Below are positions 10,817 through 47,057 of a DNA stretch of 64,000 nucleotides, in pieces. This stretch comes from a virus. Location of the stretch: positions 6,109 through 70,108 of the IMG/VR virus record IMGVR_UViG_3300032373_000004; one strand, 5' to 3'. The notes beneath the pieces are model-generated. The model was given only the letters and a program-made list of their open reading frames with translations. It was not told where the DNA came from and ran no database searches. Every line of letters begins with the position of its first letter. Within the stretch, counting starts at the first letter, position 1. Position numbers and translations under genes: made by a program.

Positions 10817-12655
10817 TTAAATATTATTTTTAACAAACTCTCTAACAGGTGCATACCTATTAGTACGTGATAGTGATAATAATGGTGTATACACATCATA
10901 TGTGTCCATATCCCTAAAATTAGTTAGTAACATTTCGATACTAGCTGGATTAGGTGGTACAACCATAATATTATCAATTCCTGAGAAACGTGTCACTTTA
11001 GCTGACATACTTCTACTAACATCAATCAATACTATATATGGCTTAAAACCGAAATATTTTTCACATTTTCTCATGAAATCATTCATGCTAGATTCTGGAG
11101 AACGCATATTATTAAACTCACCATCAGAAATTAAAGTCCAAATAGGGTACTTTTGTAATTCTTCAAGTTTATTAGGGTCTCCATTAACCCAAGCATTAAT
11201 ACCTTCTGGAATAGATGATATGTTTGTCATACCATTATTACATTTACCATTTAACCAGCTAGACATTCTTTTTAAATTATTTAAAAATGTATCTTCTGGG
11301 TCTATCAATGGTTTAGTAGGTGTTCCATAAGTTCTACCTTTCATTAAAGAATTAGGTCTAACTGTTTGACTACTAATACCATTATACATTCTACAGTTAC
11401 CTGCAAACAATCCAATCATATTACGAGCATCCACATCAGGGTTTTTCATCATTGTGATTGTAGCCATAAAAGCTGCAAACTGATAAGGTTTATAACCCAT
11501 ATTATGTCCTCCCCATCCCATACTACCAGAATCATCCATAAAAATTAAAGAATTATAAGGTAAGTTAATACTATCTAAAAATGGCTGAATCTTTATTTCA
11601 TCAACTCTACCGTTAATAATATCTTCAAACATTTTTGTAAAAGAATTAGCTCCTACATTAACCTTAGCCTCTTTCTTAACTTTTGCTAAACTATCTTTTT
11701 CTGCTTTAGTAGCTGTTCCTTGAGTAATTTTTTCTTCAAGTTTACGTTGTTCAGCTTGTTTAGTTTCTTTATAAGATTCCCAAGCCTGATAGTATTCTTT
11801 AAATTTAACCCATTTCTCTCCGAACATAACTCTATTACGAACTCTAAAACGAGCATCAGATGGCATTTTATCAATCATTTCAATGAAAGCTTCTTTATCC
11901 ATGTCTTTAATTGCCCCAGAAGAGAATATTACAGACTCAAAACCTTGATTAAATTCTTTTCTCCAATTATAAAAACCTGTAAAGTCTACATAAGTTCCTT
12001 TATCTTCAAATGGTAATCTAGCTTGTGTTGAAATTTCAGTCAGTAATTTAGCCTTAGTTTCCATTACTTTAACCGTTTCTGGTAACATTTGTGTATTACC
12101 ACTACGTTTAGAAAACCTAGGACGAGTAACAAATTTAGCTACACATATCTTTTGGAAAGGAGTACCTTTATTAATTATATTACTAACATAACTAGCTACA
12201 TCTTTTAAACCAAATAAGTTTACCATATCAATAACAGATATTACTGACTTTGTTCCTTTTTTAGTTTTAACTCTCACAGATAAAATATTATCCATAGTTG
12301 TATATTCAGTAATTAAGGTCATTAGAGCTATTCTCTTAGGTTTTCTAAGAGTTTTAATCTTAGATATTAAGAATGGTATAATAGTGTCTCTAAACACTTC
12401 TCTTTGACCATTTCCACCACCGTCTACTTTACCATCAAAAATATTATGTTGTCTATTTGTAACATCACCTACAAAGAACAATACTGTAACTAATGTAGCT
12501 AATTGTTCTTTATTTTCACATTCATTCCAAGCAGCTTCTAATTTTGAAGTTGTTGGAGTCATTCCTTTAGATGCTGATTGATATAGCTCTAAAGTGTTCT
12601 TCATCCCATAAAAAGGATTACTATCTTTCGTATTGAATTCTACTTGTTTAATCAT
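10817..12655 (-). CDS. von Willebrand factor A (vWA) domain protein, 612 aa
   Basis: MIDAS motif FMDDSGSMGWGG (DxSxS) in C-terminal half; long ORF with terminator downstream. Confidence 0.6.
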   Translation of the reverse strand: MIKQVEFNTKDSNPFYGMKNTLELYQSASKGMTPTTSKLEAAWNECENKEQLATLVTVLFFVGDVTNRQHNIFDGKVDGGGNGQREVFRDTIIPFLISKIKTLRKPKRIALMTLITEYTTMDNILSVRVKTKKGTKSVISVIDMVNLFGLKDVASYVSNIINKGTPFQKICVAKFVTRPRFSKRSGNTQMLPETVKVMETKAKLLTEISTQARLPFEDKGTYVDFTGFYNWRKEFNQGFESVIFSSGAIKDMDKEAFIEMIDKMPSDARFRVRNRVMFGEKWVKFKEYYQAWESYKETKQAEQRKLEEKITQGTATKAEKDSLAKVKKEAKVNVGANSFTKMFEDIINGRVDEIKIQPFLDSINLPYNSLIFMDDSGSMGWGGHNMGYKPYQFAAFMATITMMKNPDVDARNMIGLFAGNCRMYNGISSQTVRPNSLMKGRTYGTPTKPLIDPEDTFLNNLKRMSSWLNGKCNNGMTNISSIPEGINAWVNGDPNKLEELQKYPIWTLISDGEFNNMRSPESSMNDFMRKCEKYFGFKPYIVLIDVSRSMSAKVTRFSGIDNIMVVPPNPASIEMLLTNFRDMDTYDVYTPLLSLSRTNRYAPVREFVKNNI

Positions 12656-12914
12656 CTTTCGTTTTAATTTAATTGTTATTATTGTAAGTAAAAAATTTTA
12701 CATTATTAATGATATAAAAAGGGAGATTTCTCTCCCTAATTACAAAATTCCAAAAACTATGTTACTATCAACGGAAACATAACTCTTTTAAGATACTTGT
12801 TTTGTATAATTGATTTTAAGTCAATCGCCTTAACCACTTGGCAACAAAAGCATTATGGAGCTTTCGACAGGAATCGAACCTGCGTTTATAGTAGTTTTTG
12901 TAAGTATCTATTTG

Positions 12915-13035: not shown

Positions 13036-13153
13036 GGGGGAGTGTAGGATTCGAACCTACGACATCGTGCATCCAAAGCAAATGTAGTTTGATTTTGTAA
13101 GTATCATTAGATACTTGTTACGTTACGTGCTCTACCAACTGAGCTAACTCCCC
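13036..13153 (-). tRNA. tRNA with about 45-nt internal insertion, anticodon unresolved
   Basis: Acceptor ggggagt (13037-43) with perfect complement actcccc (13147-53) preceded by gagcta; canonical D-arm GCUC-AGUUGGUA-GAGC; perfect T-arm gtagg-attcgaa-cctac; insert carries hairpin AGUAUC-UAAU-GAUACU plus UACUUACAAAA. Confidence 0.5.
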
Positions 13154-13172
13154 CATATAAAAGCTACTTATG

Positions 13173-13259
13173 TTTACAATGTGGGATTCGAACCCACTAC
13201 CTTAATTATTGAAAAATTACGTTCTAACCAAATGAACTAAATGTATTTTTGTATTGTAA
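13173..13259 (-). tRNA. tRNA with anticodon UCA (opal-reading/suppressor-like) and a 13-nt 5' insertion
   Basis: Acceptor ttacaat/attgtaa perfect; D-arm GUUC-AUUUGGUUA-GAAC; anticodon stem UAAUU/AAUUA with loop UUUCAAU; T-arm gtggg-attcgaa-cccac; 13 extra nt between acceptor and D-arm. Confidence 0.5.
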
Positions 13260-41003: not shown

Positions 41004-42467
41004 CTAATCAAATTTAACATGATAAATAGCATTAGCAGGTGTCATATAATTAATTTCATTAGGGTCATCAGGAACTAAATATCCTTTATCATCTTCATGT
41101 AAATCATGAAGATTACAAGGTATGATTGTAGTCTTAATTTCCTTAACATCACAACTATGCTCTTTCATAAAATCTGCTATAATAACAGCAAATTGTTTAC
41201 TCATTACCTCACATGATAACATCGGATTATCTTTAATATGAGCTAATATTTTATCATGTAATAGCCAATGGTCAATGATAAAACCTTCATCATTTAATTT
41301 ATAACCGCATAATATTTCGGCTTGGTAATTGTAAGCTTCGTGACCTTCAACATTACATTGTGTTTCAGTATGATTTTCTGTTTGGAAAAAACCTCTTCGA
41401 TTTAATGTAATTAATTCTGTAACAGAATCTTCAAAATTATATGATTTGATAATTTTTTCAGATTCATCATATAAATCATAACCTTTAAAATATTCTTTAA
41501 AAGATATTGGATTATATTCTGATTTATTACGACTGAAAAATTCAAAACTACTAAATGAGTTTCTAGGACTATCGTAGAACGTAAATCCTTGTTTAGAATA
41601 CTCTCGCTCCCAAGGAGTGTTATCATATAATTCTGTATTATTTATTTTAAAAGGGAAATCTAAACTGAATAATAATTTAGCTTCTTCTTTAGTATCACAT
41701 ATAATAGTGATACTATCGTCTTTTAATTTTTGAAGTTTTTTCTTCAAACCTTTTTTCTTCTTAGGATATGTATTAAAGAATAATGTATAATTTCTATCTT
41801 CTAAAACACTTCTCCAAAAAGCATGACCTTCAATTGTATCAAGCCATGTAAAACCACCTCCACCATCATCTGCCCCTCTTCTACTCTCTTCAAAAATGCT
41901 AATGTTTTCAGGATTACCTTGTTCAACTTGACGTTTTAGTAATAACTTTACTACTTCTTTAGGTGTGTTTTTAAGATATCCTTTAAACTTTGATTTAGTT
42001 TTAGATATTTTATCAAAGAATAAATTAAAATTCTCATTTATTATAACATCTTCCCAAAAATCATTACCTTCTTTAGTTTTTTCCCACTTGAATCCTCCAT
42101 CATCAACGGATGCGTGTCTATCGTTTTCAAACACTTTAACATTTTTAGGGTTACCGTCTTTTACTTGACGTTTAAGCATTTCTTTAACAATTCGTTTTGG
42201 AAACCCTTTAATATCACCTTTATATTTAGATTTAGTTTTCTTAGGGTATTTTTCAAAAAACCTATCGAAATTTCTATCAATTAAAACAGTAGACCAAAAA
42301 CCATGACCTTCTTTTGTATCACTCCACCCAAAACCATTCCCTAAAGAACTTGCTGATATATGGTCTTCAAAAACAGATACGTCTTCATTGTTACCTTGTT
42401 TAACCTGATGTTTTAAAATTGCTTTTACGATTTCTTTTGGGAAACCTTTTAATTTTCCTTTGTACAT
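41004..42467 (-). CDS. protein with three tandem about 80-aa repeats plus about 240-aa C-terminal domain
   Basis: Repeat unit GFPKxIVKxxLKxQVxxGNxxNVxVFExxxxAxxDxGGFxWxxTxEGxxFWxxVxxxxNFxxFF occurs 3 times (residues about 3-75, 84-160, 164-245). Confidence 0.6.
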   Translation of the reverse strand: MYKGKLKGFPKEIVKAILKHQVKQGNNEDVSVFEDHISASSLGNGFGWSDTKEGHGFWSTVLIDRNFDRFFEKYPKKTKSKYKGDIKGFPKRIVKEMLKRQVKDGNPKNVKVFENDRHASVDDGGFKWEKTKEGNDFWEDVIINENFNLFFDKISKTKSKFKGYLKNTPKEVVKLLLKRQVEQGNPENISIFEESRRGADDGGGGFTWLDTIEGHAFWRSVLEDRNYTLFFNTYPKKKKGLKKKLQKLKDDSITIICDTKEEAKLLFSLDFPFKINNTELYDNTPWEREYSKQGFTFYDSPRNSFSSFEFFSRNKSEYNPISFKEYFKGYDLYDESEKIIKSYNFEDSVTELITLNRRGFFQTENHTETQCNVEGHEAYNYQAEILCGYKLNDEGFIIDHWLLHDKILAHIKDNPMLSCEVMSKQFAVIIADFMKEHSCDVKEIKTTIIPCNLHDLHEDDKGYLVPDDPNEINYMTPANAIYHVKFD

Positions 42468-42494: not shown

Positions 42495-42713
42495 TTAATT
42501 AGGTTTAAATTCAAATATTACATAACCGTTACCATAACCTACTCTTCTCATTTGAAATAGTAAGATTGCTAAACCCTCTTCGGTTTCAATCATATACTTC
42601 TCAAACACGTTGTCTTTACTTACAACTTGGTCAATGAAACGATGAGATATATACTTATCTAATCGTTGTGCTATTTCTTCTTGTGGTTTAAAAAACCATT
42701 TTAAATTTGACAT
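42495..42713 (-). CDS. hypothetical small protein
   Basis: 72-aa ORF. Confidence 0.4.
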   Translation of the reverse strand: MSNLKWFFKPQEEIAQRLDKYISHRFIDQVVSKDNVFEKYMIETEEGLAILLFQMRRVGYGNGYVIFEFKPN

Positions 42714-42931
42714 AATATTTAATTTAGTGTAACAGTTGGTATTGCTCCAATTAATTAGTCTTTCTAACTGTTACTATTTTAAGGATATTTAACCAATTAT
42801 TTTAACTAGTTTTTTACCATGTTGAGTCCTAACCCATTTATGGGTTTTAGATTCTAATTTATCACGTTCATTTAAACGTGCCTTTTTAGCATTTTCTTTT
42901 GCTTGTTTTCTGTCGAAATGATTGTCTTTTG

Positions 42932-43171
42932 TCATGATTGTTTATTTATAAATTCTTCATTAGGTGTTACTTTTGAAAGTAATTCTATACCTGTACAATA
43001 CCTATTCTCATAAGTAAATAGAGCTTCACAAACTCTTAAAACTAATTCTTTATCAGCAGATAAATCAAAATCTAACATCCAATATCCTTTTTGATTAGAT
43101 GCTATTATATAATTTTGAGGAACTTGTCGAATAGTTTGTGAATATTGATTGAATACTAATATGTTTTGCAT
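42932..43171 (-). CDS. hypothetical small protein
   Basis: 79-aa ORF. Confidence 0.4.
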   Translation of the reverse strand: MQNILVFNQYSQTIRQVPQNYIIASNQKGYWMLDFDLSADKELVLRVCEALFTYENRYCTGIELLSKVTPNEEFINKQS

Positions 43172-43173
43172 AA

Positions 43174-43335
43174 TTAGTAATTTTCATTATAAACTCTAGT
43201 TGCTAACTGTAATGCGTGTGCATTAATTTGTGCCATTCTACCTGCTGTCTGACAACTTGGTAACTGGATTCCATTATAGGTTGTTTCACCTCTTAGGATT
43301 GCTCTTTGGATGTTGTTAATTTCTATTGTGTTCAT
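43174..43335 (-). CDS. hypothetical 53-aa protein (not in supplied ORF track)
   Basis: ATG at 43335 (cat on + strand) to TAA at 43174; MNTIEINNIQRAILRGETTYNGIQLPSCQTAGRMAQINAHALQLATRVYNENY; abuts preceding gene with 2-nt spacing. Confidence 0.3.
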   Translation of the reverse strand: MNTIEINNIQRAILRGETTYNGIQLPSCQTAGRMAQINAHALQLATRVYNENY

Positions 43336-43979
43336 GATTGATAATTTTAGTCAGTAGTGTGTGTATTGCTCACATCAATAAGTCATTCTTACACTACTGT
43401 TTCTGTGTTTTAATTTTATTGTAAAGACTATTACTCTACTTCTTTAATACTTGTACTCACATACCTATATCGGATTTCTAATTACCCATATTTAAGGATT
43501 AGGCAAATTATACTTGTATCAACGCATTTGCTACGCTATTAGCTCTCTATGGTTTTGCTAACACTACCCCTATTTTAAACTGTTTGGTCAGTACTGTTTG
43601 ACGTTACAAAGATAAAGTCTATTATTGAGATACACAAGTGAAAAGTAAAATATTTTACGTTTAATAGTAAAAAAAGTCTTTGTTGCTTACTTATTACCTT
43701 GTTTAACCATACTGCATAGCGTAACGTGCTAACAACTAGTGTACATAACTTGGCAAAGTACTTTTTATAGTATTCTACTTTTCTACTGTATATTTCAAAG
43801 AACTAAACTTTATGTTTAACTTCGGTACAAAGATATAACGAGTTTTTGAATCTCACAAGAGAAAAGTGAAAAACTTTTATTTTGTTATGTTATATAATGT
43901 ATTAAAATTAAAGAACTTGCCTAACTCATCAGTGTATTCTTAAAGGCTGAATACAGACAGGTTGTTACACCTGTTTCGT

Positions 43980-44123
43980 TTATTTATTATCACTTCTAAT
44001 TATAGCCTGTTCAATACTATCTATAATTTCATTCTTTAAACTAATTCCTTCATTAATTGTTAAACCTGATAAACTAAATCCTAATTTCTCAGCCATTTCA
44101 AATACTATTGTTAATTTTTCCAT
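43980..44123 (-). CDS. hypothetical 47-aa protein (not in ORF track) with duplicated promoter/leader module
   Basis: ATG at 44123 preceded by the same about 40-nt upstream sequence as gene 44236-44436; MEKLTIVFEMAEKLGFSLSGLTINEGISLKNEIIDSIEQAIIRSDNK. Confidence 0.3.
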   Translation of the reverse strand: MEKLTIVFEMAEKLGFSLSGLTINEGISLKNEIIDSIEQAIIRSDNK

Positions 44124-44150
44124 AATATAATGTTTAAGTTATTACTGATG

Positions 44151-44158
44151 CAAATATA
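44151..44158 (-). promoter_or_regulatory. putative -7 promoter box (TATATTTG) 28 nt upstream of start 44123
   Basis: + strand ..ttactgatgcaaatataaatatg.. Confidence 0.4.
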
Positions 44159-44235
44159 AATATGTTATTTTAATCTCACAAGACATTTTTGCATTATTTT
44201 AATAAAAAAGGGGCTTTTAAACCCCTTTAATAACA

Positions 44236-44436
44236 TCAATGTAAATCTTTTTGTTCGTTGTAGTAATCCCAAGCTTCTTGCTCTGTATTTCTCCAACCTA
44301 AAGTTGTTACATTGTTTTTTGTTCCTTTAGTTGATTTAACACGTATTATCCAACGTCCATCTTTCAACTGTGAAACTCCTTCGGTTTTGTTACGGTCATT
44401 TCTTTTAAAGCTGTTTCCGTAGTTTAATCCTGCCAT
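44236..44436 (-). CDS. hypothetical small protein (66 aa)
   Basis: ORF preceded by a duplicate of the 44124-44165 upstream module (variant box ACATTTGT at 44464-44471). Confidence 0.4.
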   Translation of the reverse strand: MAGLNYGNSFKRNDRNKTEGVSQLKDGRWIIRVKSTKGTKNNVTTLGWRNTEQEAWDYYNEQKDLH

Positions 44437-45780
44437 AATATAATGTTTAAGTTATTACTGATACAAATGTATGTATAATAATTGTGTCGTGCAAGTGACA
44501 ATTTGTCAGTGCATGGTGAAGTCAGTGGTAGTGGGATGTTGAGGTGTTAAATAAATTATTATATGTCATGATGTCATGAATAATATGTGTATTTAAATAG
44601 CTGATTATAACATACAGACCTTAATCGCTCGTCCTCCCTGAGTAAAAAACTATTCAATAAATATAATTAGCCTCATAACATTATAGTAACAACTGATTCT
44701 AAAATGTTAGCTTTTCCTTTTTATATATCATACGTACAATTTTAAACCTTCTGATAATCAACAGTTTAAAATAGCTTTGTAAATTATTAGATAATGTTTA
44801 CACCACAAATAAAAGTCTGAATTTATCCCTTAAAAGTTCAATCGTAGACCCCACCACCCCAAAATAAAAATGGATTTCCTTTCAGGTCTCAGGGGGGTCT
44901 ATTCAACTATAGACCCTAAAGCCTCTTTTTGATTTAATTTTTTTGAAAAAATTTTATAAAAAAAATATGGAGCATTAGAATCATAACTAACACTCCATTT
45001 AAGCATCACAGAACGTGATTTAAGGAAAGAAAAAATAAATCTGGGTATATCATACCACAAAGTCTTTTAAAACGTCTTAAAACGGCAATTTTAAAAACCC
45101 TTATTAGACCATAAATTTATCTCATAAAAAATCCCACTGAACAAATGGGATGTAGGGCAAAGATAATAAAAAAATGCTTATATATTAAGTATTAATATAT
45201 AAATTAATATTTAATTAGTTATAATTAAGAAGTTATAATGTAATAAAGTAGATATTGTTTAATAAACTTAAATATCTAATAAGAAGTAGTAGGTTTTCTT
45301 TGCTTCTTTCTTTTGGTTTTCTCTCTTCACAAAGTTACACTTTTTTATTGAATAATGATTTATAAGATATTTGATTAATAATCAATGGTTTAATCAAAAA
45401 CACATCATTTTTACCAAGTAAAATATTTTACAAAAAAGTCAGATAAATAATTTTAATAATACTATATATAAAAACTATAATTTAACCATGAACTATAAAA
45501 ATAATCTATAGTATATTAAAAACATCAATAAAATCAACACTTCACCACATAACAACATATATGGTCAGTAAAAATATTTACATTTTCTTTGGTCAGTAAA
45601 ATATTTTACATTATCTTTACACCAGAATTAAAAATCAAAATAAAATATGAATCTAACAACATTACAATATATAACATTATTCTTCTGGTCAATATTTAGT
45701 CCAACTAAATATAATCAGTATGAATACTACCTGAATATAGGATTACAAGCTAAATATGCTTTCGAAAAAGCTCAAGAATC

Positions 45781-46488
45781 ATGATTAAGAAACAATATAT
45801 AGGTTATTATAGAGTTTCCACTAAAAGACAAGGTGACTCTGGATTGAGTTTAGAGTCTCAAAAACAAGATGTACAAAGATTTGTACCAAATGACGGTACA
45901 TTGATTAATGAATATACGGAAGTTGAATCGGGTAGAAAAAACAACAGGAAACAATTATCTAAAGCATTACAGGAATGTAGAGATACAGGTGCAACTTTGG
46001 TAATAGCTAAATTAGATAGATTATCACGTAATGCTCCTTTTACAATAATGTTAAGGGATTCTAGTGTAGATTTTTTATGTGCAGATATGCCAGAAGCTAA
46101 TAGTTTAACAATAGGTATATTAGCATTAATAGCTCAAGATGAAGCTGATAAAATATCTAGGAGAGTTAAGGATGCTTTATCTGTTATTAAAGGTAAAATT
46201 GAAAGAGGTGAAGAGCATATATCTAAATCAGGTAATGTTATAACTAAATTAGGTGCTTGGAGTACTATGTCAGATTTTGCTAGGGAAAGAGGGTTACAAA
46301 TAAGAAAGGAAAACGCTAAGAATAATCCAGAAAGTAAAAAAGCTGGAGCATTTATAGTGACTGCTAAGAATGCAGGTAATAATTTTAGTCAAATTACTAA
46401 AATGTTAAATAATTCTGGGTTTAGTACCCCTAGAGGGGGTAAATTTTCTCAGGTGCAAACAAAGAGATTATATGAGCGTTATAAATAA
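45781..46488 (+). CDS. small serine recombinase (resolvase/invertase family)
   Basis: Catalytic domain YYRVSTKRQGDSGLSLESQ (nucleophile Ser) and LVIAKLDRLSRN; 235 aa, no large-serine-integrase C-terminal domain. Confidence 0.75.
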   Translation: MIKKQYIGYYRVSTKRQGDSGLSLESQKQDVQRFVPNDGTLINEYTEVESGRKNNRKQLSKALQECRDTGATLVIAKLDRLSRNAPFTIMLRDSSVDFLCADMPEANSLTIGILALIAQDEADKISRRVKDALSVIKGKIERGEEHISKSGNVITKLGAWSTMSDFARERGLQIRKENAKNNPESKKAGAFIVTAKNAGNNFSQITKMLNNSGFSTPRGGKFSQVQTKRLYERYK

Positions 46489-46693: not shown

Positions 46694-46894
46694 ATGAAAC
46701 ATTGTCCAAATTGCGTAACAGAGTTACAAGAAAATAAGAAAAAATTAGGTAGAAACACTAAATGGTTAGTGTGCCCTAATTGTGGTCTTAGGGTTAAACC
46801 TACGATAGATATAGAAACACCTCATATAGTAAAAGGTGTTAAACGAGATAAAACTTTTATAGAGGATGAAGCAAACGGTAGATATAACCTATAA
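46694..46894 (+). CDS. zinc-ribbon small protein
   Basis: CPNC..CPNCG pair. Confidence 0.4.
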   Translation: MKHCPNCVTELQENKKKLGRNTKWLVCPNCGLRVKPTIDIETPHIVKGVKRDKTFIEDEANGRYNL

Positions 46895-47057
46895 GGTTAA
46901 TGAGATATTAAAACGAAGTGTTTTTAATACTAAAAAGTTATTATCAGAAGGTTTAGATATTAGTAGACCTACTTTAGATTCGAGAATGAGTGGTAAAACT
47001 AAATGGGGTAAATTAGAGAAACATTGGATTAATTATATTTATAAAAAATTAAAATAA
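46866..47057 (+). CDS. hypothetical small protein
   Basis: 63-aa ORF overlapping previous by 29 nt. Confidence 0.3.
   Translation: MKQTVDITYKVNEILKRSVFNTKKLLSEGLDISRPTLDSRMSGKTKWGKLEKHWINYIYKKLK

What the first reader, a model, noticed from the sequence alone, without database searches (positions are those of the whole stretch)
43340..45780. 2.4-kb ORF-poor region with iterated motifs and long inverted repeats next to a serine recombinase
Only three ORFs of 66 aa or less are present, against an otherwise gene-dense genome. The region contains: a repeated about 25-nt motif (cacaagtgaaaagtaaaat at 43636, cacaagagaaaagtgaaaaac at 43853, partial at 44168); a long hairpin (gtagacccc..ggggtctat, 44847-44905) plus nearby tagaccc repeats; shorter hairpins (atggag..ctccat at about 44968-45000; atcac-agaacg-tgat at about 45008-45023); and an extremely AT-rich block of ttaatat/ataat iterons (45150-45700). 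It ends at a 235-aa resolvase/invertase-type serine recombinase. Candidate roles: replication origin, res/crossover site for the recombinase, or non-coding RNAs.
Basis: seen in the sequence. Interest (0 to 1): 0.55.

Follow-up and report, generated by a model that had tools for sequence, protein, structure and literature searches.

The report
Phage early-gene control region, probable origin
The gene-poor stretch is the conserved central control region of an uncultured flavobacterial phage, holding host-type promoters, repressor-like binding sites, terminators, a previously undescribed folded leader RNA and a likely replication start; it shows no sign of being a recombinase target or a cluster of RNA genes.

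Summary
All ten related phage genomes examined have a 1.2-3.9 kb gene-poor gap between the leftward replication arm and the rightward arm that starts with a small ORF and the serine recombinase. Two blocks (43600-43880, 44680-45780) are conserved without codon periodicity. A 14-bp palindrome (GTAAAATATTTTAC; three exact copies, none expected by chance) sits at fixed promoter positions in seven genomes: -21.5, -49.5 and about -199 of the rightward promoter, and -49.5 of one leftward promoter. That is operator behaviour. The hairpins at 44967-44998 and 45131-45151 are minus-strand terminators. The long hairpin is not conserved. The AT-rich block is the least stable duplex in the 64-kb window and in 9 of 10 relatives' loci. 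It lies just downstream of a conserved promoter, as in T4 oriF/oriG (inferred). The leftward leader (43352-43399) carries a strongly covarying three-way-junction RNA absent from Rfam. No evidence supports a res site or an invertible segment.

The parts
42707..42799 (-). Second copy of the structured leader RNA element.
   Evidence: Covariance-model hit of 51.8 bits with R1 and 82.3 bits with R2. Its outer stem is GUAACAG/CUGUUAC, with the same loops as copy 1.
43352..43399 (-). Structured leader RNA element, copy 1. It is a three-way junction: an 8-bp outer stem (CAGUAGUG/CACUACUG) encloses two 4-bp hairpins with loops AAUGA and AGCAAUA. It ends 16 nt before the ATG at 43335.
   Evidence: 9 of 16 pairs are compensated among 5 sequences. 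Across 11 copies, 99.4% of cells are paired, 15 of 16 pairs change on both sides, 0 of 500 shuffles reach this, and slid controls give 22-47% pairing. No Rfam match.
43607..43637 (-). Promoter P1 (TTG-N20-TATCTTTG), predicted start about 43602. It has a 266-nt ORF-less leader running to the first gene of the leftward operon.
   Evidence: The -33 and -7 columns are invariant in 7 genomes while the spacer varies.
43645..43658 (.). Operator-like palindrome O_L (GTAAAATATTTTAC), centred at -49.5 of P1.
   Evidence: The position is the same (+-2 nt) in 7 genomes.
43659..43827 (-). Conserved non-coding segment between P2 and P1, including a run of seven T on the minus strand.
   Evidence: Conservation profile, alignment, and no codon periodicity.
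43828..43858 (-). Promoter P2 (TTG-N20-TATCTTTG), predicted start about 43823. It reads through P1 into the same operon.
43955..44181 (-). Window-specific cassette 1: promoter P3 (44151-44181), a 23-nt leader, a 47-aa ORF (43980-44123, phrog_26637) and a hairpin at 43955-43976.
   Evidence: The ORF is 78% identical at the nucleotide level to Cellulophaga phage phi13:1 gp076. The cassette is absent from relatives.
44207..44494 (-). Window-specific cassette 2: promoter P4 (44464-44494), a 23-nt leader, a 66-aa ORF (44236-44436) and a terminator (44207-44228). P3 and P4 share a 60-nt promoter-plus-leader repeat.
   Evidence: (repeat D1). The small ORFs found in other genomes' gaps are not homologous to it.
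44676..44709 (.). Conserved inverted repeat TAACATT...AATGTTA, with a compensatory change in L150. Function unknown.
44813..44919 (.). Conserved block of unknown function. It contains invariant AAGTCTGAATTT (44813-44824), a C-rich and a G-rich pair of tracts, and invariant TATAGACCCTAA (44908-44919).
44957..44998 (-). Intrinsic terminator T2 (stem 44967-44998, followed by a U-run).
   Evidence: Consensus energy -17.8 kcal/mol, a U-run in all five sequences, three compensated pairs in L151, and U.G pairs that fit only the minus strand.
45005..45040 (-). Highly conserved segment: the small hairpin ATCAC..GTGAT followed by TTTAAGGAAAGAAAA.
45124..45151 (-). Intrinsic terminator T1 (stem 45131-45151, followed by a U-run).
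   Evidence: The hairpin is conserved, with compensated pairs.
45178..45277 (.). AT-rich block that behaves like a DNA unwinding element. It has 10% GC and is the least stable duplex in the window.
   Evidence: -93.3 kcal/mol against a mean of -117 (SD 6.1); the homologous position is the minimum of the locus in 9 of 10 genomes. Its position is fixed at -547 to -582 from the recombinase ATG in 7 genomes. Its sequence is poorly conserved.
45281..45325 (-). Near-invariant tract, purine-rich in the minus-strand RNA, that forms the 5' end of the promoter-5 transcript. It contains the hairpin AAGAAG/CUUCUU.
   Evidence: L151 has the compensated stem AGAAC/GUUCU.
45330..45337 (-). The -7 box (TAACTTTG) of promoter P5, predicted start about 45325. 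It drives an ORF-less transcript of about 200 nt across the AT-rich block to T1.
   Evidence: CAAAG-TA is invariant and the fifth base of the box varies (A or C) in 6 genomes. The full TTG-N18-20 composite is present in L027, L150 and L154. In the window itself the -33 element is degenerate.
45418..45431 (.). Operator-like palindrome O3, at -199.5 of the rightward promoter and -99.5 of P5.
45492..45512 (.). Palindrome whose arms covary between genomes (ACTATA/TATAGT in the window, ATTATAAAT/ATTTATAAT in L150, ACCATAAAT/ATTTATGGT in L027). Function unknown.
45562..45619 (+). Rightward promoter P_R (TTG 45589-45591, N20, TATCTTTA 45612-45619; predicted start about 45624). Operator O1 (45596-45609) lies in its spacer at -21.5, and O2 (45568-45581) lies at -49.5. 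Together O1 and O2 form the 28-nt tandem repeat.
   Evidence: (repeat D6). Relatives have a canonical TAnnTTTG box.
45647..45784 (+). Conserved 45-aa ORF with a hydrophobic N-terminus. It starts 23 nt after the predicted P_R start and overlaps the recombinase start (ATGA).
   Evidence: weak codon periodicity, p=0.011.
45781..46488 (+). Serine recombinase, 235 aa.
   Evidence: PF00239, E 5e-23. Conserved in all 10 genomes at 56-69% identity. The YYRVSTKRQ and LDRLSR motifs are visible in the sequence.
46866..47057 (+). 63-aa helix-turn-helix-like protein, the candidate operator binder (inferred).
   Evidence: It is present in every genome that has the palindrome and missing only from L148, which has none. 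Weak HTH matches. JGI labels one homologue 'predicted DNA-binding transcriptional regulator'. The predicted structure has three helices at pLDDT 75.8.

Best explanation
The region is the central divergent early-transcription control region of a roughly 76-kb uncultured phage of Flavobacteriia (Bacteroidota). Its right-hand part probably contains the replication origin.

Shown at the sequence and comparative level:
1. There is a tandem array of host sigma-A-type promoters on the minus strand. P1 and P2 feed the leftward replication-gene operon through a long leader. P3 and P4 each drive a small, window-specific ORF cassette.
2. One plus-strand promoter, P_R, drives the 45-aa ORF, the recombinase and the small genes after it.
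3. A 14-bp palindrome sits at nucleotide-fixed promoter positions: -21.5 and -49.5 of P_R, -49.5 of P1, and -99.5 of P5 (which is also -199.5 of P_R).
4. Two conserved minus-strand intrinsic terminators, T1 and T2, are present.
5. A covarying three-way-junction RNA lies in the leftward leader 16 nt before the first start codon. A second copy lies further down the operon.

Inferred mechanism:
- Host RNA polymerase fires from these promoters on infection.
- A small dimeric regulator, most likely the 63-aa HTH protein made from the rightward operon, then binds the palindromes. It shuts off P_R through the spacer site and co-regulates P1 and P5.
- The leader RNA module controls translation or stability of whichever gene follows it.
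- Promoter P5 transcribes a conserved purine-rich RNA into the genome's least stable, AT-rich 100-130 bp and stops at T1/T2. This opens or primes the origin, in the manner of T4 oriF/oriG.
For: Conserved layout:
- The gene-poor gap between divergent arms is present in all 10 genomes.
- The non-coding blocks are conserved as well as the neighbouring genes, with no codon periodicity (p 0.13-0.71, against 2.5e-33 for the recombinase).

Promoters:
- The composite promoter motif occurs 4 times here against 1.9 expected per 64 kb.
- Its density is 1.5-2.3 per kb in the gaps against 0-0.66 per kb elsewhere.
- The -33 and -7 columns are invariant while the spacers vary.
- TAnnTTTG at -12 to -5 is the flavobacterial sigma-A box (PMC9723704). 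With that rule, P3, P4 and P_R each have a 23-nt leader to their ATG.

Operator:
- The exact palindrome occurs 3 times against 0.00 expected.
- Its promoter-relative positions are the same to within 2 nt in 7 genomes.
- It is the only recurrent motif in the right-hand block.
- L148 has a different palindrome at its own back-to-back promoters.

Other elements:
- Terminators.
- Leader RNA.
- Unwinding-element-like block: the global stability minimum in the window and the locus minimum in 9 of 10 genomes, with fixed geometry relative to P5 and the recombinase.
- The T4 precedent of a promoter plus a sequence-nonspecific A+T-rich DUE (PMC3016281).
Against: - There are no transcript, start-site, binding or replication data, so every functional assignment rests on consensus matches and conservation.
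- A lone TAnnTTTG box is not enriched (122 found against 105 expected). P5 has a degenerate -33 in the window and in three relatives, so P5 rests mainly on invariance of the box.
- The 63-aa protein is only weakly HTH-like: all Pfam hits are below threshold and the Foldseek matches have E about 8. The 75-aa neighbour has the same phyletic pattern.
- GC skew and arm symmetry are confounded with coding strand, so they do not test the origin independently.
- Several conserved pieces are unexplained: 44676-44709, 44813-44919, 45005-45040 and 45492-45512.
Confidence: 0.68

Rival explanations
1. The right-hand block (45131-45640) is primarily a replication origin of the initiator-and-iteron type. 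The palindromes would be initiator-binding sites flanking an AT-rich unwinding element, not transcriptional operators.
For: The AT-rich stability minimum is conserved in 9 of 10 genomes. Three palindrome copies lie within 420 nt of it, and they are the only recurrent motif there. The region sits at the divergence point of the two gene arms and at the cumulative GC-skew minimum.
Against: The palindromes are locked to promoter coordinates to within 2 nt, including one copy 1.5 kb away from the AT block at P1. No recognisable initiator gene is adjacent. The distant relatives L148 and L149 keep the AT block but lack the palindrome array. The skew is confounded with coding strand.
Confidence: 0.2
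2. The palindromes and their 28-nt duplication are res-like or crossover sites for the adjacent serine recombinase. They would serve to resolve genome multimers or to invert or delete the 1.95-kb segment between 43645 and 45596, and the recombinase might also repress its own promoter as Tn3 resolvase does.
For: Resolvase genes classically lie next to their res site, which overlaps their promoter (established for Tn3/gamma-delta, Sin and beta recombinase). Three sites lie within 370 nt upstream of the gene. The central TA is symmetric, as in resolvase crossover sites. The recombinase is the best-conserved gene of the neighbourhood.
Against: Only the 14-bp core is shared between copies, and the flanks are neither symmetric nor similar, whereas serine-recombinase dimer sites are 24-34 bp. 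No part of the gap appears in inverted orientation in any of 9 relatives. L148 retains the recombinase at 56% identity but has no palindrome, while loss of the palindrome tracks loss of the 63-aa HTH protein. No resolvase-type C-terminal HTH_7 domain was detected.
Confidence: 0.1
3. The gap mainly encodes independent trans-acting small RNAs, for example the promoter-5 transcript of about 200 nt and an RNA ending at T2.
For: The transcription unit from P5 to T1/T2 has no ORF, a conserved 5' end and conserved terminators. The 45005-45040 segment is highly conserved just upstream of T2.
Against: There is no Rfam match even at E=5. Consensus folds are weak on both strands. The P5 RNA folds no better than shuffles (z -1.66). 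Its conserved 5' tract has no complementary target in the 64 kb. Its body is unconserved AT-rich sequence.
Confidence: 0.15
4. The gap contains the physical genome ends (terminal repeats) or a packaging site, with early promoters clustered near the ends as in T7 or T5.
For: Tandem strong host promoters in an ORF-poor, repeat-bearing region resemble the T7 left end. Three independent assemblies have contigs that start inside the gap (L028, L152, L153).
Against: Several contigs of 76-78 kb run straight through the gap. The contig starts fall at different places. The terminase gene is 14 kb away. No long direct repeat was found.
Confidence: 0.06

Closest known systems
Divergent early control regions of lambdoid phages (P_L/O_L and P_R/O_R with Cro/CI)
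   Same: Host-polymerase early promoters fire in both directions from a central region. Short palindromic operators overlap or flank the promoters on both sides. A small HTH protein is encoded in the rightward early operon. An RNA element lies in the early leader, analogous in position to nut.
   Different: There is no CI-like repressor or lysogeny module. The promoters are Bacteroidota-type (-33/-7). The two promoter sets are about 2 kb apart, not about 80 bp. Operators sit at -49.5 on both sides with only one spacer site. Binding has not been demonstrated.
T7 early promoters A1, A2, A3 (tandem host promoters)
   Same: Several strong host-type promoters are arranged in tandem, 200-320 nt apart, all reading into one early operon (from knowledge of T7).
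   Different: Here the array is internal and divergent rather than at a genome end. Two of the promoters have captured their own small ORFs. One carries an operator.
[quoted passage not shown]
   Same: A conserved promoter points into an extremely A+T-rich stretch of about 100 bp that starts a few tens of nt downstream. The property is conserved while the sequence is not, matching the sequence-independence of the T4 DUE.
   Different: The promoter is of the host sigma-A type rather than MotA-dependent. A near-invariant purine-rich RNA 5' segment and two terminators flank the block. R-loop formation and priming are untested.
Tn3/gamma-delta res (resolvase binding sites between divergent genes that also act as operators)
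   Same: A serine recombinase gene has palindromic sites overlapping its own promoter, within an intergenic region between divergent transcription units.
   Different: The sites here are 14-bp cores rather than 25-34-bp subsites. They are spaced 28 and 150 nt apart, with a fourth about 1.95 kb away. The distribution of the palindrome follows a small HTH protein and not the recombinase.
Cis-acting leader RNAs of phage early operons (lambda nut/boxB, HK022 put, T7 RNase III sites, T4 translational operators)
   Same: A small structured RNA with covarying stems and conserved loops is repeated within an early operon, downstream of the early promoter and between genes.
   Different: The architecture is a three-way junction of 48 nt. 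It sits at a fixed 16-17 nt before start codons of unrelated genes. It has no Rfam family, and no match was found outside this phage group.

Membership tests
Bacteroidota sigma-A promoters | A -7 box TAnnTTTG | tested here: met
   P1-P4 match exactly. P_R is TATCTTTA in the window and TAnnTTTG in relatives. The consensus comes from PMC9723704.
Bacteroidota sigma-A promoters | A -33 TTG about 18-21 nt upstream of the -7 box | tested here: met
   P1-P4 and P_R all have an N20 spacer. For P5 it is met only in L027, L150 and L154; the window's -33 is degenerate.
Bacteroidota sigma-A promoters | Transcription actually starts about 5 nt downstream of the box | not testable with these tools
   This needs 5'-end RNA-seq. 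Indirect support: identical 23-nt predicted leaders for P3, P4 and P_R.
Intrinsic (Rho-independent) terminators | A G+C-containing hairpin followed directly by a U-run on the transcribed strand | tested here: met
   44998-44967, 45151-45131 and 44228-44207 on the minus strand; 5 found against 0.5 expected. Conserved, with compensatory and wobble pairs.
Transcription-factor operators | A palindromic site at fixed positions relative to promoters, conserved across relatives | tested here: met
   Sites at -21.5, -49.5 and about -199 of P_R, at -49.5 of P1 and at -99.5 of P5.
Transcription-factor operators | A cognate DNA-binding protein binds the site | not testable with these tools
   The candidate is the 63-aa HTH-like protein, based on co-occurrence and weak HTH matches.
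res sites of resolvase-type serine recombinases | Location next to the recombinase gene, overlapping its promoter | tested here: met
   O1 and O2 lie 170-215 nt upstream of the recombinase ATG, within P_R.
res sites of resolvase-type serine recombinases | Two or three dimer-binding subsites of 24-34 bp, each with inverted 9-12-bp end motifs | tested here: not met
   Only a 14-bp core (7-bp half-sites) is shared between copies; the flanks differ.
Invertible segments (Hin/Gin/Mpi type) | Both orientations of the segment exist among genomes or reads | tested here: not met
   No inverted-orientation match of the gap in 9 relatives. Read-level data are not available.
Promoter + DUE origins (T4 oriF/oriG type) | A promoter directed into an A+T-rich unwinding element just downstream | tested here: met
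   P5 box at 45330-45337; stability minimum at 45178-45277; geometry conserved.
Promoter + DUE origins (T4 oriF/oriG type) | A persistent R-loop or priming of DNA synthesis, and autonomous replication | not testable with these tools
   This requires experiments.
Iteron-type origins | An array of initiator-binding repeats next to the AT-rich element, with an initiator gene nearby | tested here: inconclusive
   Only the palindrome half-site recurs. No initiator gene was recognised among the neighbours.
Rfam RNA families | A match to any of the 4227 covariance models | tested here: not met
   Only tRNAs reach gathering scores. Nothing credible at E<=5 in 43100-45900.
Small resolvase/invertase serine recombinases | An N-terminal Resolvase catalytic domain with the active-site serine motif | tested here: met
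   PF00239, E 5e-23; YYRVSTKRQ is visible in the sequence.
Small resolvase/invertase serine recombinases | A short C-terminal HTH_7-type DNA-binding domain | tested here: not met
   No Pfam domain was found in residues 140-235. Some homologues carry a precomputed PF07508 'Recombinase' domain, and the best PDB match is the TP901-1 integrase catalytic domain.

The most novel reading that the evidence does not exclude
Two linked novelties are not excluded. First, the 48-nt three-way-junction leader RNA, with its fixed A/U-rich tail and start codon, could be a new class of portable cis-regulatory module for translation, stability or antitermination control in Shine-Dalgarno-less Bacteroidota phages. 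It might be read by the conserved 46-48-aa basic protein encoded immediately upstream of its second copy. Second, one small Cro-like regulator could control both early promoters and the promoter that feeds the unwinding element, coupling early-gene shut-off to host-polymerase-primed origin firing.
Probability: 0.2. Interest if true: 0.7.

Novelty: new variant of a known kind. Interest (0 to 1): 0.5.

Why it matters
Almost nothing is known about how phages of marine and environmental Flavobacteriia organise early transcription and start replication, and this lineage has no cultured relative (its DNA polymerase is about 38% identical to the nearest isolate). The region gives a testable map:
- six predicted transcription starts;
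- a four-site operator set with exact promoter geometry;
- a candidate regulator;
- a candidate host-polymerase-primed origin;
- a strongly covarying RNA motif that is absent from Rfam.

It also shows that a recombinase gene next to repeats does not by itself indicate a recombination site.

Tried and rejected
- **Rfam.** Searches at gathering and at permissive thresholds found only tRNAs.
- **IMG/VR searches for relatives.**
  - Protein queries gave only recombinases of at most 49% identity, or nothing.
  - An exact 29-nt probe gave nothing.
  - The pyrimidine-tract probe was too low in complexity, and none of its 119 hits was a true relative.
- **Metagenome probes.** Both found nothing.
- **Outer-stem probe CAGTAGTG..CACTACTG.** It hit more than 120 IMG/VR contigs. 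81 of them share one 45-nt length and are coding sequence for a primase-like zinc-ribbon motif (CGSSDA...HYCFSC), so they are unrelated.
- **Loop-pattern hits in IMG/VR and GTDB genomes.** None scores with the covariance model.
Rejected.
- **The 66-aa ORF as an AP2-like DNA binder.** This was my guess from its appearance, and Pfam does not support it.
- **Small ORFs in different genomes' gaps as one family.** Rejected.
- **The palindrome-like site at 12688.** It does not overlap a recognisable promoter.
- **Targets for the purine-rich RNA tract.** None found.
- **Structure prediction from the locus-derived alignment.** The fold search was not significant.
Full report
**What genome this is.** The window has about 29% GC, 20 tRNA genes and phage genes. 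On the minus strand, from about 8.3 to 43.3 kb, these include DNA polymerase, primase-helicase, ribonucleotide reductase, NAMPT and a ParA-like protein. On the plus strand from 45.6 kb onward they include a tail fibre protein and the terminase. The only nucleotide match to a deposited phage is a 114-nt small ORF shared with Cellulophaga phages. The DNA polymerase is about 38% identical to its nearest cultured relatives. The region under study is the divergent junction of the two arms and coincides with the cumulative GC-skew minimum. That skew follows coding strand everywhere, so it is not independent evidence.

**Checking the observation.** Mechanical ORFs of at least 40 aa in the region are 47, 43, 66, 53 and 45 aa. 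The recombinase has a Resolvase catalytic domain. 'Iterons' in the AT-rich block are not supported. Tandem Repeats Finder gives only weak low-complexity repeats there, plus one solid 28-nt x2 tandem at 45562-45618.

**Relatives.** IMG/VR and the JGI metagenome collection hold no close relative. The large protein database does: recombinase homologues of 56-69% identity sit on contigs of 55-78 kb. I fetched nine such loci. Every one has the same layout: minus-strand genes, then a 1.2-3.9 kb stretch with at most one or two small called genes, then the recombinase on the plus strand, usually preceded by one or two small ORFs. The gap is therefore a conserved trait of the lineage.

**What is conserved.**
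- Window 43600-43880 and 44680-45780 are conserved at about 70-76% nucleotide identity. That is as good as or better than the neighbouring small genes.
- Window 43900-44520 is specific to this genome.
- Substitutions in the conserved blocks show no 3-nt periodicity (p 0.13-0.71). The recombinase gene gives p = 2.5e-33. The conservation is therefore non-coding.

**The repeated motif is a promoter.**
- On the minus strand the 'cacaag' motif reads CTTGTG, which contains the TTG of a -33 element. It is followed 20 nt later by TAnnTTTG, the sigma-A -7 box of flavobacteria, which lies at -12 to -5 (PMC9723704).
- TTG-N20-TAnnTTTG occurs seven times in 64 kb against 1.9 expected. Four of these lie within 900 nt here, all on the minus strand.
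- Across ten genomes the gaps hold 1.5-2.3 such sites per kb against 0-0.66 per kb elsewhere, mostly as tandem minus-strand arrays. L149 is the exception, at 0.46 against 0.37.
- In alignment the TTG and TTTG columns are invariant while the spacers drift.
- Placing the transcription start 5 nt after the box gives a 23-nt leader for P3 (ATG 44123), P4 (ATG 44436) and the plus-strand promoter P_R (ATG 45647).
- P3 and P4 share a 60-nt promoter-plus-leader repeat. They drive unrelated small ORFs that relatives lack. The small ORFs found in other genomes' gaps are not homologous to them. This spot therefore accumulates variable cassettes.
- P1 and P2 have no ORF of their own and read into the leftward operon through a 266-nt leader.
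- Caveat: a lone TAnnTTTG box is not enriched. Only the composite motif and cross-genome invariance carry weight.

**The palindrome behaves as an operator.**
- GTAAAATATTTTAC occurs three times exactly against 0.00 expected, plus a variant at 45568.
- Relative to predicted starts, the site centres lie at -21.5, -49.5 and about -199 of P_R. They lie at -49.5 of exactly one leftward promoter (P1) and at -99.5 of P5. These offsets hold to within 2 nt in seven genomes that are only about 70% identical in DNA. L154 keeps the core TAAAATATTTTA at two of these positions.
- It is the only motif that recurs in the right-hand block.
- The distant relative L148 has no such palindrome. It has back-to-back divergent promoters with a different palindrome (TGACAATTTGTCA) beside their -33 elements, overlapping the plus-strand one.
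- The palindrome's distribution matches that of a 63-aa protein encoded at 46866-47057, which is present everywhere except L148. This protein gives weak, sub-threshold HTH matches. One homologue is labelled 'predicted DNA-binding transcriptional regulator' by JGI. Its three-helix model has pLDDT 75.8. Structural matches to Fis/NtrC-type domains are not significant.
- That this protein binds the palindrome is an inference.

**Terminators and the ORF-less unit.**
- Five terminator-like sites are found against 0.5 expected.
- T2 (44967-44998) and T1 (45131-45151) are on the minus strand and are conserved. Both show compensatory changes, and T2 also has wobble pairs that fit only that strand.
- Upstream of them, the -7 box TAACTTTG (45337-45330) keeps CAAAG-TA invariant in six genomes. 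In three relatives it has a full -33/-7 match.
- The predicted transcript of about 200 nt begins with a near-invariant purine-rich tract that contains a compensated hairpin. It then crosses the AT-rich block and ends at T1.
- This transcript is not unusually structured (z -1.66). Its conserved tract has no complementary target in the window.

**The AT-rich block.**
- By nearest-neighbour energies, 45178-45277 is the least stable 100 nt in the whole 64-kb window (-93.3 kcal/mol against -117 +- 6.1).
- The homologous position is the minimum of the locus in 9 of 10 genomes, including distant ones.
- Its centre lies 547-582 nt before the recombinase ATG in seven genomes. The P5 box lies at -436 to -451 in six.
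- Its sequence is poorly conserved.
- A promoter pointing into a sequence-nonspecific A+T-rich unwinding element is the defined anatomy of T4 oriF and oriG (PMC3016281).
- I therefore infer a transcription-activated or transcription-primed origin, at roughly 40-45% confidence.
- If the contig is 76.6 kb and the unseen 12.5 kb is plus-strand, the convergent point at about 8.3 kb lies nearly opposite the gap. That would fit bidirectional replication, but it rests on that assumption.

**A structured leader RNA.**
- On the minus strand at 43352-43399, an 8-bp stem encloses two 4-bp hairpins. It ends 16 nt before the first start codon of the leftward operon.
- Among five genomes, 9 of 16 pairs show double compensatory changes.
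- A covariance model found a second copy at 42707-42799 and further copies in relatives.
- Across the 11 copies, 99.4% of cells pair and 15 of 16 pairs change on both sides. No shuffle out of 500 reaches this, and slid controls give 22-47% pairing. The alignment was fitted to the model, so the counts lean towards the structure.
- The two copy classes nevertheless have entirely different outer stems with the same loops (AAUGA, AGCAAUA). They share the same tail, ACUAAAUUAAAUAUUAUG, which runs into start codons of unrelated genes.
- There is no Rfam match and no scoring match in IMG/VR, GTDB genomes or the metagenome collection. A refined model finds no further copies.
- Its role is not determined. 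Candidates are control of translation, RNA stability, or antitermination.

**The recombination-site hypothesis.**
- In favour: resolvase genes usually adjoin their res site.
- Against: only a 14-bp core is shared between copies, and the flanks are unrelated. No inverted arrangement exists in nine relatives. L148 keeps the recombinase without the palindrome. The recombinase lacks a recognisable resolvase-type HTH, and its best solved match is the TP901-1 integrase catalytic domain.
- I put this hypothesis at about 10%.

**Unexplained pieces.**
- The inverted repeat at 44676-44709.
- The block 44813-44919, with invariant AAGTCTGAATTT and TATAGACCCTAA.
- The very conserved 45005-45040.
- The covarying palindrome at 45492-45512.

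**Verdict.** The region is a conserved phage early-control region and probable origin. It is ordinary in kind but new in its particulars, and it contains one new RNA motif.

Noticed in passing
window 42707-42799 (-), with equivalents at L150 3716-3811, L024 5232-5323 and L151 4218-4313: A second copy of the three-way-junction leader RNA. It always lies just after a conserved 46-48-aa, very basic ORF (window 42789-42935) and just before start codons of unrelated genes. The basic protein could be its RNA-binding partner.
   Followed up: partly
window 13172-13246 (-): ARAGORN calls a tRNA with anticodon UCA (labelled tRNA-SeC), which would read UGA. Rfam also scores it as a tRNA (54.9 bits). It could be an opal-suppressor tRNA carried by the phage. 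ORFs in the window look normal under the standard bacterial code.
   Followed up: no
window 13036-13153 (-): Rfam reports a tRNA match spanning 118 nt (49.7 bits) that ARAGORN does not call. It may be a tRNA with an insertion or intron.
   Followed up: no
window 43980-44123 (-); L020 6002-6145: The 47-aa cassette ORF (phrog_26637) is 78% identical at the nucleotide level to gp076 of Cellulophaga phage phi13:1 and to phiST and phi19:2, which are otherwise unrelated phages. It looks like a horizontally mobile small gene, here fused to a duplicated promoter-leader module.
   Followed up: partly
window 43900-44520; L027 8138-8653; L024 8383-8610; L150 5698-5898; L151 6568-6792; L154 7358-7564: The same spot in the gap, between the two conserved blocks, holds different, non-homologous small genes in each genome, each with its own promoter. 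It appears to be a hotspot for cassette gain and loss.
   Followed up: partly
window 45781-46488 (+): The recombinase's C-terminal 95 residues have no Pfam match. Some homologues carry the 'Recombinase' domain of large serine recombinases (PF07508), and the best solved match is TP901-1 integrase. It may be a shortened relative of the large serine recombinases and not a classical resolvase/invertase.
   Followed up: partly
window 41004-42467 (-): The 487-aa protein begins with three tandem repeats of about 75 aa (KGFPKEIVK..QGN..F.W..T.EG..FW) that match several PHROGs of unknown function.
   Followed up: no
L148 8080-8151: This distant relative has back-to-back divergent promoters with a different palindrome (TGACAATTTGTCA, and TTGTCA-N7-TGACAA in the spacer). 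The layout is the same as in the window but the operator specificity differs.
   Followed up: partly
window 12688-12701: A one-mismatch copy of the operator palindrome (GTAAAAAATTTTAC) lies 33 nt upstream of the start of the 612-aa gene at 10817-12655, just after a terminator hairpin. No canonical promoter is present there.
   Followed up: partly
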